15,816 nt of DNA from a virus (Duplodnaviria > Heunggongvirae > Uroviricota > Caudoviricetes): IMG/VR virus record IMGVR_UViG_2917408641_000001, one strand, 5' to 3'. Positions within the stretch are counted from its first letter, which is position 1, and each line of letters begins with the position of its first letter. Below are positions 6,001-9,000 of this stretch, one piece after another. Position numbers: made by a program.

Positions 6001-9000
6001 TATGACAATGCCTGTGTGGAAAGCTTCTTTCATTCGCTGAAGGTGGAATGTATCCACGGGGAACGCTTTAGCAGCCGGGAAATAATGCGGGCAACGGTGT
6101 TTAATTATATCGAGTGTGATTACAATCGCTGGCGTCGTCACAGTGCCTGTGGCGGTCTCAGCCCGGAACAATTTGAAAACCATAATCTCGCTTAGGGCCG
6201 TGTCCACATTACGTGGGTAGGATCATGGCTCGTTCAGACGCAGGGCGCGTCCTGATGCCAGTCTTTGAATTCTTTTATTACGCTCGTCAATAATAATTGC
6301 GCAACTCAGTAATTGTTCTGATGTCATATTTTCACGATTAATAATGTCTTCCATTTCAGAAATAATGGATATAATTTTGTCTTTATTCAGTTCTTTCATT
6401 ATTTACAACCTTTTCAGTGAACAAACTCAACAAGGCGAATTCGTGTCGCCTCGTTGAGTTTATCTTTTTGCTACTCAGGAAAAAAAGCCTGAATGTTCTT
6501 TTTCATCTGCTGTACGGCGTTGTCGCTCTTCGTTGTCGGTTGTGCCGGTTTTTCTGGCTGAGGTGGCAGTGAAGGTAACCGGATTTCATCGTCTGACCAT
6601 TCTGCCAGCGAGTACGCCAGTGCGGGGTTGTTTTTGATGAGTGCCAGCCCGGCCAGAAAGGCCGCGCGTTGCGCGCGGCTGCGTTCGGAGGCTGGCAGGC
6701 TGTCGAGATAATCACACGCCTGTTGCTCACGCTTGACGATAGCGGGCTTCAGGTAGAAACTTATCCGCCTGGTTGATGTCGTCATTGGTTTACTCCTTGT
6801 CCATTGCGTACAGCCCATTAACCAGAGCAAACTGTGGCACCCCGTCCGCGATGAAAGTCGCATTAACTCCGCAGGCTTCGCGGATAGCGGGTGCCACAAT
6901 CTCCGCCCCGCCACCGACAACCATCACCCGCCCGTAACCCGAAAAACCCGCCAGCGCGCGGATCACGCGTTGTTTCAGTGTTTCTTCCTTTTCACGAATA
7001 ACCGCCATCAGGCTGGCGTAATGCGCGTCATTGTGGATGTGCTGGCGCAGCCAGGCTTCATCATGGCGATGTTCGATAATGGTACTGGCGATGTGGTGAC
7101 TGGTACGCATACCGTTAGTGGCCATCACCGACAGTACGGCATCGGCCATCAGAGAAACGCCTACGTGTGGATCGCAAAATACCTGGCTGATACCTGCCAG
7201 TTGTCCCTGAACCTTTGCCACATCCAGCGTGGTTCCGCCCAAATCCACAATCAGCAGGGACTCAAACGGACTCATGTCAGCCAGGGCTTGAAAGCCAGCC
7301 GGAATGGATTCAGGCATAACCCGTACATTACGGATAGTGAATGCCTCACCGTTCTGGTACTCCACCGGGCGCATAACGTTCGCTTTTTTGCGGTTGATGT
7401 TGGTCATATCCGGCTGTGCGTTTGTGTCGAAATACTCGCTCAGTGGCAGGGTGACAACAACATCCACCTCCTGTGGCGTGATGCCTGATTTGACCAGCGC
7501 GTGATGAATGGCAATGACATTCACATCGCTGTACTGGTATTGCGTGTCGGTCGTCTGGACAAAGCGATCGCTGACCGGATCAAAACCATAGCGCACGCCA
7601 TCAAGCATGTAGTTCGCGGGCTGCGTGCCACCGAACGGCGCAGACCATTCCGACTTGAAGCTGTTCGGGCTGATGGCGTTGCGGCGTTCGCCGTTCTCAG
7701 TCCATGCCAGCTTGATGTTGGTGGAGCCGTCGTCGATGCAGATTTTCATGTTGATTTTCCTTATGTTGGTTAATTAAACGTTTTCGGGATTCAGAAACCC
7801 CGGTTTTGCCTGTTTTGTGCGCATCTCATATATCGCGGCGCGTTTTTTGCTCATTTACGGGGTTTGCAAATCCCGTTTTTGGTTATTTTTTGTTTTCGCT
7901 GATTAAACCACCCCGCAGCAGCCCGGCACGGCTGTGGGCGCGTTCCGTGCCGGCGCTGATTTGCTGTGCGTGCTCTGCGTCACGGATGGCGCGCAGCATG
8001 TCAGACAGCACGGTGACGGGTGGTTTTGTGCCTGTCTGCTCCCGCCGGAGTACTGCGCCCAGACGTGCGGCGGCTGCCGGGTCTGCTTCCCCGAGCTGCT
8101 TCAGGTAAACGGTAACCGGGTTCTGGCGGATCTCCGTGCTGCTTACGCCGTGATTACGGCTCAGGCGCTGCCAGAGCTGCGTAATCCGGCTGTCCGGGCG
8201 GGTATCCGGTTTGCGTACAATTTCAAATCCCTGCGGTGCAATGATGCTGCCGTCAACGTACAGGCTGCCGCCCCGTAACAGGTGCTGCATCTGCTGTTCA
8301 CCGATATGCAGGCCGAGAGATTCGGCAGACTCCCGCCATTCTTTAGCGAGTAACTCGTGGTTATCAGGCAAAGGCCGCGGCTGTTTGCGGCTCTGTGTCC
8401 GGTTCTGCATGTCATCACTGCTGTTTTTTGCCTGTTTGTCACAAAGCGAACGCATCAGCGCCCGGCGTTCGTGCTGTTTCAGTGACCTCAGCCAGTCAGT
8501 GACACTGACATTCGGTGGCATTTCCGGCCACGGACGCGGTGCCGTGGCCTCATCAGGCTGTTGTGATTTCGTGGTTTCTTTGTTTTCGTTTTGTGTACGG
8601 GGACAGTTATTGCCACGAGTCCAAGGGGCGGCAGGGCCGCCCTGAAGGTCAAAATCCTTTTCGCGGGCGCTGTCTTCCGTTTCCGGTTTACGTCTTACCA
8701 GCTTCCAGTTATCCGGATGCGTGCACACACGGGAAGACTCCCCGATGAGCGGCGACCAGATCCCGTAAATCTGTACGCCCTGTTCGCCGTAATCGTTCAG
8801 CTCATCGGCGAGGTCGTAGGCGGTGCGAATCAGGTAGTCCTTGCGTGGAACAAGTACGCCACCCTGTTTTTCAATGTAGGAGGCAAAACACCCGGCATCA
8901 GCGGCAGCGAGTACCGCATCCATTGCCTCGTTCTCCAGACGTTGCGGTCCCTGTGGGTTGCGGGCCATCTGACAGGCAAGGCGGCGCAGTTCACGCCATA

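What the first reader, a model, noticed from the sequence alone, without database searches (positions are those of the whole stretch)
7750..7882. Iteron-like GTTTT repeats and a near-palindrome upstream of parM
The 133-bp region between the rep gene stop and the parM start contains several GTTTT-cored short repeats and an 18-bp imperfect palindrome centred on TTGCAA. This fits a ParR-bound centromere that also serves as the par promoter.
Basis: partly seen in the sequence, partly recalled or inferred. Interest (0 to 1): 0.4.

Follow-up and report, generated by a model that had tools for sequence, protein, structure and literature searches.

The report
Candidate phage par centromere: two palindromes
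The short stretch between a P2-like prophage's replication gene and its actin-like partition genes carries two copies of an 18-bp palindrome exactly 73 bp apart, most likely the docking site (centromere) for the phage's ParR protein, but it shows no sign of being a promoter.

Summary
The described features are real. The 133-bp gap (7750-7882) lies between rep/GpA and parM on the minus strand. It holds five GTTTT motifs (a sixth lies at 7892-7896) and an 18-20-bp palindrome (7857-7876). This gives four CGGGATT half-sites as two 7-N4-7 palindromes, 73 bp centre to centre. Each palindrome sits in a ~39-bp direct repeat that begins with A-tracts.

This pair occurs only here in the window. In IMG/VR the motif is almost exclusive to parM-upstream regions of P88-like (Xuanwuvirus) phages. 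The 73-bp spacing holds in 81 of 88 variants. A recombinant with a different upstream gene keeps the pair with parMR.

ParM and ParR are clear homologues of the plasmid R1 and pB171 proteins. The best reading is a compact parC-type centromere bound by ParR (confidence about 0.6, binding untested).

The promoter claim is not supported. The sense strand scores below shuffled sequence, while an R1-type control scores high. parMR is probably read through from the phage early operon. The architecture differs from R1 parC and resembles srpC of SXT/R391 elements. Interest is moderate.

The parts
7857..7876 (-). Site 1: 20-bp palindrome (core 7858-7875). On the coding strand it reads ACGGGATT-TGCA-AACCCCGT, two heptad half-sites with centres 11 bp apart.
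   Evidence: (I2). In P88-type relatives it reads ACGGGATT-CACA-AATCCCGT and lies inside the last 19 codons of rep.
7785..7802 (-). Site 2: 18-bp palindrome. On the coding strand it reads CGGGGTT-TCTG-AATCCCG. It has the same arms as site 1. Its proximal edge is 35 nt upstream of the parM ATG.
   Evidence: (I1). The centre-to-centre distance to site 1 is 73 bp, kept in 81 of 88 unique relatives.
7854..7892 (-). Repeat unit 1 (39 nt): A-tracts (CAAAAAAT, CCAAAAAC), then site 1, then GTAAA.
   Evidence: Local alignment of the two halves gives 27/39 identical; 3 of 1000 shuffles score as high.
7781..7819 (-). Repeat unit 2 (39 nt): A-tracts (CACAAAAC, GGCAAAAC), then site 2, then GAAAA.
7826..7858 (-). 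Central stretch GTAAATGAGCAAAAAACGCGCCGCGATATATGA. It is identical between the window and the P88-type consensus. It is non-coding here but encodes the rep tail and its TGA stop in P88. The GATATAT part varies in some relatives.
   Evidence: No promoter-like match.
7780..7896 (-). Six AAAAC motifs (GTTTT on the + strand) at 7780, 7803, 7812, 7842, 7875 and 7892. These are A-tracts that precede or flank the palindromes.
7758..7762 (-). Shine-Dalgarno AAGGA of parM, 8 nt before the ATG at 7749-7747.
   Evidence: Read from the sequence. Conserved in the relatives.
6790..7749 (-). parM, an actin-like partition ATPase (319 aa).
   Evidence: Pfam StbA_N 3.5e-82 and ParM C-terminal domain 3.6e-68. 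R1 ParM structure 1MWK matched at 8.8e-93. 46-52% identical to plasmid ParMs.
6471..6785 (-). parR/stbB, the adaptor protein (104 aa). Predicted ribbon-helix-helix N-terminus, variable linker, conserved C-terminal tail KNIQAFFPE.
   Evidence: Pfam PF10784 3.8e-24. Family profile hits pB171 ParR structure 2JD3 at 4.4e-10. The N-terminal 63 aa are 43% identical to IncF StbB. Alignments.
7883..10396 (-). rep (P2 GpA-type replication endonuclease), the gene upstream of the element.
   Evidence: PF05840 1.6e-129. 88% identical to P88 rep, which runs 19 codons further.
8603..8640 (-). Homologue of the P2 ori nick-site sequence inside rep (30/38 identical to P2 around nt 29892). This places the replication origin about 750 bp away from the palindromes.

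Best explanation
The element is the cis-acting centromere (parC equivalent) of a type II ParMRC partition cassette carried by a P88-like (Xuanwuvirus, P2-like) prophage.

**Anatomy.** It consists of two ~39-bp repeat units. Each unit has A-tracts followed by an 18-20-bp palindrome made of two CGGGATT heptads with centres 11 bp (one helical turn) apart. The two palindromes are 73 bp (about seven turns) apart, so all four heptads face the same side of the helix.

**Inferred mechanism.** One ribbon-helix-helix ParR dimer binds each heptad, giving a dimer of dimers on each palindrome. The two complexes, helped by A-tract bending, form a folded nucleoprotein cap. The conserved C-terminal tails of that cap capture the ends of ParM filaments, which push sister phage circles apart.

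**Expression.** The region has no promoter of its own. parM and parR are most likely the last genes of the early (Cox ... rep) operon. The system would then act when the phage genome is extrachromosomal, after infection or induction or in an occasional plasmid state, and not in the integrated lysogen.

**Shown versus inferred.** Shown here: the anatomy, its specificity to this cassette, the protein homologies, and the lack of promoter and sense-strand terminator signals. Inferred: ParR binding, the stoichiometry, the folded complex, and the timing of expression.
For: - **Position.** The site is directly upstream of parM, followed by parR, the standard type II layout (R1: PMC2241845; srpMRC: PMC4489591).
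- **Statistics.** Four identical half-sites occur in a regular geometry: two hits against 0.04 expected. Two 7-N4-7 palindromes occur in the region in only 56 of 5000 shuffles. The 39-nt direct repeat is matched by 3 of 1000 shuffles.
- **Specificity.** 115 of 120 IMG/VR stretches with the exact 20-bp motif are parM-upstream regions. In the contigs that carry the parM start motif, no palindrome lies anywhere but just upstream of parM. Clusters of heptads occur only there.
- **Conserved geometry.** The 73-bp spacing is kept in 81 of 88 unique variants. All four heptads match CGGGATT at 93-99% per position.
- **Sequence conserved, not pairing.** Arm changes are single-sided, with no compensatory change for the local hairpins. 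This fits protein recognition better than RNA structure.
- **Linkage to parMR.** In L050 a different gene replaces the rep C-terminus, with the junction about 20 bp left of site 1, and the whole module is kept.
- **Proteins.** ParM matches the R1 ParM structures at about 1e-92. The ParR profile matches pB171 ParR at 4e-10. The predicted DNA-binding strand TRRISFYLKP is invariant across ParR variants that are otherwise 54-87% identical, and the C-terminal N97, I98, F102 and P103 are also invariant.
- **Not the immunity operators.** The motif is absent from the Cox/repressor region, which lies inside the window.
- **Precedent.** srpC of SXT/R391 elements has four direct and inverted repeats in the transcribed leader of srpM. 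SrpR binds them in pairs, and the promoter is controlled by another factor (PMC4489591).
Against: - There are no binding or stability data of any kind.
- Only four candidate sub-sites exist, against ten in R1.
- The relatives are too close for a conservation test. The window and P88 are 84% identical over the 151 nt upstream of parM, no better than four-fold degenerate sites in the adjacent rep 3' end (0.82). Two of 28 half-site positions differ, against about 4.5 expected, which is not significant.
- On the opposite strand both palindromes look like intrinsic terminators.
- The minimum-energy RNA fold pairs site 1 with site 2. The window's two arm changes (T to C in site 1, A to G in site 2) are exactly compensatory for that long-range pairing.
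- No co-variation between ParR variants and site variants could be tested, because the recognition strand never varies.
- A remnant prophage keeps parMR without the sites.
Confidence: 0.6

Rival explanations
1. RNA-level element in the early polycistronic transcript. The two palindromes fold as hairpins, or pair with each other into a ~17-bp duplex enclosing the centre. This would act as an intercistronic processing site (for example RNase III), a stability element or a translational-coupling element between rep and parM.
For: The minimum-energy fold pairs site 1 with site 2, with z-scores of -2.8 (window) and -4.3 (P88). The window's two arm substitutions restore perfect Watson-Crick pairing in the long-range model, and L051 shows a second such case. 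The region is probably transcribed from upstream, because it has no promoter of its own and no sense terminator.
Against: A long-range stem needs site 1 to be complementary to site 2. It does not need each site to be a palindrome, nor all four arms to share one sequence. The low z-scores follow automatically from any inverted repeats. The common variants break pairing: CGGGACT breaks it on the sense strand and AATCCTG on the antisense strand, and some phages carry both. Two compensatory cells among 85 sequences is what drift at shared half-site positions could give. L050 and L058 carry same-position changes that are not compensatory.
Confidence: 0.12
2. Binding sites for a protein other than ParR, such as a phage regulator or a host nucleoid protein, or part of the replication machinery such as an accessory origin or lagging-strand priming structure for rolling-circle replication by GpA.
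For: In most relatives site 1 lies within the 3' end of rep. P2-type origins lie inside gene A. Palindromes are typical targets of many dimeric regulators.
Against: The homologue of the P2 nick-site sequence is about 750 bp upstream, inside rep at 8603-8640. The motif is absent from the Cox/repressor control region and from the rest of the window. The module stays with parMR when the rep C-terminus is replaced. In the window rep stops before site 1, so the coding overlap is dispensable.
Confidence: 0.12
3. Rho-independent terminators acting on the + strand, antisense to rep and parM. They would stop transcription that enters from the late or cargo side before it runs antisense into rep.
For: On the + strand site 1 is an 8-pair hairpin followed by TTTTTGGTTATTTTTT. 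In P88 both sites score as terminators on that strand.
Against: No gene nearby needs them. In P88 the nearest opposing operon is 2.5 kb away, and a hairpin-plus-T-run that scores higher in the scan lies right after parR on that strand. Two independent terminators would not need identical stem sequences or a fixed 73-bp spacing. The T-runs are simply the complement of the A-tracts that precede each palindrome. In the window, site 2 has an A:C mismatch on that strand.
Confidence: 0.08
4. One reading: a ParR-bound centromere that also contains the autoregulated par promoter, as in plasmid R1.
For: The bipartite layout, with two repeat units flanking a 55-bp centre, recalls R1 parC, where the 39-bp core holds the promoter (PMC2241845). 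A weak ATGAGC-16-TATATG lies in the centre.
Against: That match scores 1.7, far below the shuffle mean of 5.2-5.4 and below the 12.1 of the R1-type control. The consensus scan finds nothing on the minus strand. The TATAT part is replaced in several relatives (ATAAAACAT, GAAATAT). In P88-type phages the centre is still inside the rep reading frame.
Confidence: 0.1

Closest known systems
parC of plasmid R1 / R100 (type II ParMRC)
   Same: It lies immediately upstream of parM-parR. It is bipartite, with two repeat blocks flanking a central stretch. It is A-tract rich on the coding strand, with CAAAA(A)C motifs like the cores of the R1-type iterons. The ParM and ParR proteins are homologous.
   Different: R1 has ten 11-bp direct iterons (5 + 5) around a 39-bp core with a strong promoter, and marked curvature (PMC2241845). 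Here there are four heptads in two inverted pairs, with no promoter-like sequence and only borderline A-tract phasing. The predicted DNA-facing residues of the ParR strand differ from R1 (T-R-S-Y-K against R-T-A-K-N; inferred from the alignment), so a different target sequence is expected.
srpC of the srpMRC locus of SXT/R391 integrative conjugative elements
   Same: It is a type II partition locus on an element that normally sits integrated and replicates by a rolling-circle enzyme when excised. Its centromere is four short repeats in direct and inverted orientation in the transcribed leader of the actin-like gene. The adaptor binds them in pairs, and single repeats are not stably bound. Transcription comes from a promoter controlled by another regulator (PMC4489591).
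   Different: SrpR has no recognisable similarity to ParR, whereas this ParR is a clear PF10784 member. The srpC repeats are 13 bp and unrelated in sequence. The host element is a conjugative element, not a phage.
alpS / AlpA / AlpC of the Corynebacterium prophage CGP3
   Same: It is an actin-like filament system carried by an integrated prophage. An adaptor binds repeats next to the operon. It is needed for efficient phage DNA replication after induction rather than for lysogen maintenance (PMC4446434).
   Different: alpS is about 24 short TTAAnnG repeats. The proteins are only distantly related. The gene order is adaptor first.
pSK41 and pB171 ParR-centromere complexes
   Same: They are ribbon-helix-helix ParR proteins that assemble as dimers of dimers on paired ~10-bp sub-sites (own knowledge of Schumacher et al. 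2007 and Moller-Jensen et al. 2007). The 11-bp spacing of the heptads here fits that geometry. The ParR profile matches the pB171 structure 2JD3.
   Different: Those centromeres are tandem direct repeats forming a continuous array. Here there are two separated inverted pairs.

Membership tests
Type II (ParMRC) partition locus | Actin-like ParM ATPase gene | tested here: met
   PF06406 3.5e-82 and PF21523 3.6e-68. R1 ParM structures matched at about 1e-92 over the full length.
Type II (ParMRC) partition locus | Small ParR adaptor gene directly downstream of parM, with a ribbon-helix-helix N-terminus and a ParM-binding C-terminal tail | tested here: met
   PF10784 3.8e-24. Profile hit to pB171 ParR 2JD3 at 4.4e-10. 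Invariant N-terminal strand and invariant C-terminal N97, I98, F102 and P103. The AlphaFold monomer model gives helices at 20-29, 32-52 and 54-61 and a C-terminal helix at 88-101, but at low confidence.
Type II (ParMRC) partition locus | Cluster of repeats immediately upstream of parM | tested here: met
   Four CGGGATT heptads in two palindromes, within two 39-nt repeat units.
Type II (ParMRC) partition locus | ParR binds the repeats specifically | not testable with these tools
   Needs gel shift, footprinting or ChIP. No protein-DNA modelling tool was available.
Type II (ParMRC) partition locus | The cassette stabilises an unstable replicon, and the site exerts incompatibility | not testable with these tools
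   Needs a genetic assay. The only hint of an episomal state is one 34.5-kb circular 'plasmid' record that is a whole P88-like genome.
R1-type parC architecture | Two clusters of five 11-bp direct iterons | tested here: not met
   No 11-bp direct-repeat family was found. AAAAC spacings are 17, 33, 30, 9 and 23 bp. The R1-type control L009 shows the iterons plainly.
R1-type parC architecture | Sigma-70 promoter in the core between the repeat clusters | tested here: not met
   Weight-matrix top score was 3.9 (window) and 1.9 (P88), against a shuffle mean of 5.2-5.4. The R1-type control scored 12.1. The consensus scan found nothing on the minus strand.
R1-type parC architecture | Helically phased A-tracts (intrinsic curvature) | tested here: inconclusive
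   Power at 10.25-10.5 bp was reached by 48 of 1000 shuffles in the window, against 1 of 1000 for R1-type and 3 of 1000 for IncL/M.
Rho-independent terminator | G+C-rich hairpin followed by a U-run on the strand that is transcribed | tested here: not met
   On the coding (minus) strand the hairpins are followed by TAAATGAG and GAAAACG. The pattern is met only on the antisense strand.
Rho-independent terminator | Stem kept by compensatory changes while the sequence drifts | tested here: not met
   Zero compensatory cells for the local hairpins among 85 unique sequences. The arm sequence itself is conserved, and it is the same in both sites.
P2-type replication origin (GpA nick site) | Sequence homologous to the P2 nick site GCGCCTCGG/AGTCCTGTCAA | tested here: not met
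   No match in 7750-7900. The homologous stretch (30/38 identical) is inside rep at 8603-8640.

The most novel reading that the evidence does not exclude
P88-like phages are present in about a quarter of complete E. coli genomes. They may carry a self-contained rep-parC-parMR cassette in which the centromere is built into the 3' end of the replication gene and is transcribed only with the early lytic operon. The actin-like machine would then work on excised or incoming phage circles. It could position or segregate replicating genomes, as proposed for AlpAC of CGP3, or support a facultative plasmid-prophage state. It would not be needed for lysogen maintenance. That would make it a widespread, unstudied example of a plasmid partition system re-used in the lytic or transitional phase of an integrating phage.
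Probability: 0.3. Interest if true: 0.6.

Novelty: new variant of a known kind. Interest (0 to 1): 0.35.

Why it matters
Type II partition systems are textbook plasmid machinery. Why an integrating P2-like phage, present in roughly 24% of complete E. coli genomes, keeps a ParM that is almost invariant (98-100% identical protein) is unexplained. [quoted passage not shown]

Pinning down the cis site gives a concrete handle. The four defined heptads can be mutated, used as a ParR ChIP or gel-shift target, or used as a tag to follow phage DNA in cells. The absence of an own promoter predicts when the system is active.

The centromere assignment itself is the expected default for a region upstream of parM. 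The surprise for a specialist is therefore modest.

Tried and rejected
- **Conservation as evidence of function.** The 57-88 unique relatives are too similar. The window-to-P88 identity of the region (0.84) is no higher than four-fold degenerate sites of the neighbouring rep segment (0.82). parM is a separately conserved mosaic block (0.94). Not informative.
- **More distant relatives, to test co-variation between ParR and the sites.** The genome scan gave only 3 close loci. The ParR search gave only the tight P88-like clade, with an invariant recognition strand. The next relatives are plasmid ParRs at about 30% identity overall (43% over the N-terminal 63 residues for the R1/StbB type), with unrelated iterons.
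- **Rep homologues without parMR, to see whether site 1 travels with rep.** All close rep homologues in the phage collection also carry parM.
- **Rfam.** There is no known RNA family in the region.
- **ParR structure.** The monomer model has low confidence (pLDDT 62), and the Foldseek search of the PDB gave only noise.
- **Origin hypothesis.** Rejected after the P2 nick-site homologue was located inside rep.
- **Literature.** No paper in the library characterises the centromere or the role of parMR in P88-like phages. The search for P2 ori papers was unproductive.
- **PADLOC scan of neighbouring cargo genes.** Nothing convincing.
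Full report
**Setting.** The window is the early region of a P2-like prophage of the P88 / Xuanwuvirus type. 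On the minus strand it reads, from right to left:

- a Cox-like gene (13987-14274)
- small early genes
- rep, a P2 GpA-type endonuclease (7883-10396)
- parM (6790-7749)
- parR (6471-6785)

An integrase fragment and a repressor-like gene lie on the plus strand at the right end. Insertion sequences and low-GC cargo lie to the left. Fourteen phage records carry the same rep-parM-parR arrangement at about 90% DNA identity, including P88 and Citrobacter phage phiSM. So do 1290 of 5426 complete E. coli genomes, almost always on the chromosome. The exact window sequence of the region occurs in one IMG/VR contig (L010). An identical ParR is recorded from Escherichia marmotae.

**Checking the observation.** The gap between the rep stop (TAA 7885-7883) and the parM start (ATG 7749-7747) is 133 bp, as stated. 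GTTTT occurs five times inside it and once just outside, always on the + strand, which is AAAAC on the coding strand. Six copies in 151 nt is the densest cluster in the window. It is reached by 38 of 5000 dinucleotide shuffles of the region itself.

The spacings are irregular. The helical phasing of the A-tracts is borderline (48 of 1000 shuffles), whereas R1-type and IncL/M parC controls are clearly phased (1 and 3 of 1000). The palindrome centred on TTGCAA is real (7858-7875, extending to 7857-7876).

On the coding strand the two read CGGGATT-TGCA-AACCCCG and CGGGGTT-TCTG-AATCCCG. The consensus CGGGATT-N4-AATCCCG, with up to two mismatches, hits only these two places in 15.8 kb against 0.04 expected. 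Each palindrome lies in a 39-nt direct repeat that starts with A-tracts (27/39 identical; 3 of 1000 shuffles). The centres are 73 bp apart.

**Relatives.** I extracted the parM-upstream region from all fetched loci, which gave 88 unique sequences.

- All four half-sites match CGGGATT at 93-99% per position.
- The N4 spacers vary (CACA, CACG, TCAG, TAAA and others).
- The 73-bp spacing is exact in 81 of 88.
- Arm substitutions are single-sided. There is no compensatory change for the local hairpins. Only two cells, the window itself and L051, are compensatory for a site 1 to site 2 pairing.

A scan of IMG/VR for the exact 20-bp motif returned 120 stretches, of which 115 are this same parM-upstream region and five are unrelated chance hits. 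In the contigs that carry the parM start motif, no palindrome lies anywhere but just upstream of parM. Isolated heptads elsewhere occur at chance frequency.

In P88 and most relatives the rep frame continues 19 codons through site 1 and stops at the TGA of GATATATGA. In the window a CAG-to-TAA difference ends rep earlier, so the coding overlap is dispensable.

In contig L050 the rep C-terminus is replaced by an unrelated 155-codon gene (phrog_21788). The junction lies about 20 bp left of site 1, and the whole module from the A-tracts to parR is retained. This links the sites to parMR and not to rep. A degraded prophage in E. coli EC7518 keeps parMR but has lost rep and both sites.

**The proteins.** ParM matches the R1 ParM crystal structures over its full length (8.8e-93). 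It is 46-52% identical to ParM of IncF, IncL/M and IncK plasmids. ParR is a PF10784 member. A profile of the family hits the pB171 ParR structure 2JD3 at 4.4e-10. Its N-terminal 63 residues are 43% identical to StbB of IncF plasmids.

Within the P88-like clade ParR varies from 54 to 87% identity. The N-terminal strand TRRISFYLKP and the C-terminal N97, I98, F102 and P103 are nevertheless invariant. ParM is 98-100% identical in protein, with 94% identity at four-fold sites. The neighbouring rep 3' end shows 82% at four-fold sites and parR 52%, a mosaic pattern. The AlphaFold monomer model of ParR has low confidence. It shows helices where a ribbon-helix-helix fold and a C-terminal helix would lie. 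The structure search with it was uninformative.

**Promoter and terminators.**

- The consensus scan finds no promoter-like site on the minus strand between 6300 and 8300.
- A weight-matrix scan of 250 nt upstream of parM gives top scores of 3.9 (window) and 1.9 (P88). These are below the mean best score of shuffles (5.2-5.4).
- The same scan finds TTGACT-16-TAAACT at 12.1 in the R1-type parC.
- On the coding strand neither palindrome is followed by a T-run.
- On the opposite strand both resemble intrinsic terminators, because the A-tracts that precede them become T-runs.
- The homologue of the P2 ori nick sequence lies inside rep at 8603-8640, not here.
- Rfam has no family in this region.

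**Interpretation.** The most economical reading is a compact centromere for the phage's ParMR system. It would be four heptads, bound by four ParR dimers as two dimers of dimers. The half-site centres are 11 bp apart and the two palindromes about seven turns apart, so all lie on one face, with A-tracts assisting bending.

This is inferred from geometry, from the known behaviour of ribbon-helix-helix ParR proteins, and from the exclusive association with the cassette. It is not shown.

The architecture is not that of R1 parC, which has ten direct 11-bp iterons around a promoter (PMC2241845). It is closer to srpC of SXT/R391 elements. There, four direct and inverted repeats in the transcribed leader are bound in pairs, and the promoter answers to another regulator (PMC4489591).

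There is no promoter signal and no sense terminator, and the rep frame overlaps the site in the relatives. Together these point to parMR being the distal genes of the early operon. They would be expressed when the phage genome is extrachromosomal. That fits the role proposed for AlpAC in prophage CGP3 (PMC4446434). It also fits the suggestion that P88 may have episomal states (PMC7969092). One 34.5-kb circular 'plasmid' record is a complete P88-like genome.

**Rivals and weaknesses.** An RNA-level role is not excluded. It is hinted at by the window's own pair of substitutions, which are compensatory for inter-site pairing. However, it does not explain why each site is itself a palindrome with the same arms, and common variants break pairing on one strand or the other.

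Antisense terminators would not need identical stems or fixed spacing. Another binding protein cannot be ruled out. The immunity region lacks the motif, and the origin lies elsewhere. Conservation does not help, because the relatives are too close and the region is no more conserved than nearby synonymous sites.

**Verdict.** The centromere interpretation is plausible (about 0.6). The promoter interpretation is not supported. This is a new architectural variant of a well-known kind of system, of moderate interest mainly because of its phage context and prevalence.

Noticed in passing
window 11424-11511 (-) and 11547-11621 (-): Rfam matches above gathering score to C4 antisense RNA (RF01695, 80 bits) and isrK Hfq-binding RNA (RF01394, 64 bits). 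They lie inside or overlapping the Ash-family / regulator-like ORF 11061-11678 of the early operon. This suggests a P1/P7-style antisense-RNA control module in a P2-like phage.
   Followed up: no
window 7883-7885 versus L001 3319-3375: rep ends 19 codons earlier in the window than in P88 (CAG to TAA). Site 1 is therefore non-coding here but encodes the rep tail (QTETGLTNPANEQKTRSDI) in most relatives.
   Followed up: yes
window 6471-10396 versus L001: There is sharp mosaicism between the window and P88. parM is 94-100% identical in DNA. The rep 3' end is 70-83% identical, a rep segment at about 8460-8660 is 55-76%, and parR is 46-68%. ParM protein is 98-100% identical across 80 phage contigs, while ParR ranges from 54 to 87%.
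   Followed up: partly
window 8603-8640 (-): A sequence 30/38 identical to the P2 ori nick-site region (P2 nt ~29892) lies inside rep. It is the likely replication origin of this phage.
   Followed up: partly
window 3589-4283 (+) and 5045-6195 (+): Two insertion-sequence units lie just downstream of parR, where P88 has small phage genes followed by the portal gene. One consists of transposase ORFs phrog_1191 and phrog_720. The other is a two-ORF unit whose second ORF has an rve integrase-core (DDE) domain.
   Followed up: no
window 1200-3500: A low-GC island (31-39% against about 55% elsewhere) holds a 470-aa DUF4116 protein (1786-3198, minus strand). This is probable cargo in the variable region after the par genes, with no convincing PADLOC match.
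   Followed up: partly
L212 (NZ_CP148288.1, 34,461 bp circular): A record deposited as an E. coli plasmid is a complete P88-like phage genome with rep, both palindromes, parM and parR. It is either an episomal state or an assembled excised form.
   Followed up: partly
L090 2440-2545 (E. coli EC7518 chromosome): A prophage remnant joins a DUF4761 gene directly to parM, 44 bp upstream of the ATG. rep and both palindromes are deleted, but intact parM and parR are kept.
   Followed up: partly
L009 1100-1150 (R1-type parC control): The promoter core of the R1-type parC contains an inverted repeat, AAATGGGGT ... ACCCCATTT, spanning the -10 region. I did not check whether this has been described.
   Followed up: no
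window 7796-7802 and 7858-7864: The two half-sites that face the centre of the region both carry the same variant (CGGGGTT), while the outer two are consensus. This makes site 1 and site 2 perfect mutual complements. The cause could be chance, gene conversion or a pairing constraint; it is unexplained.
   Followed up: partly
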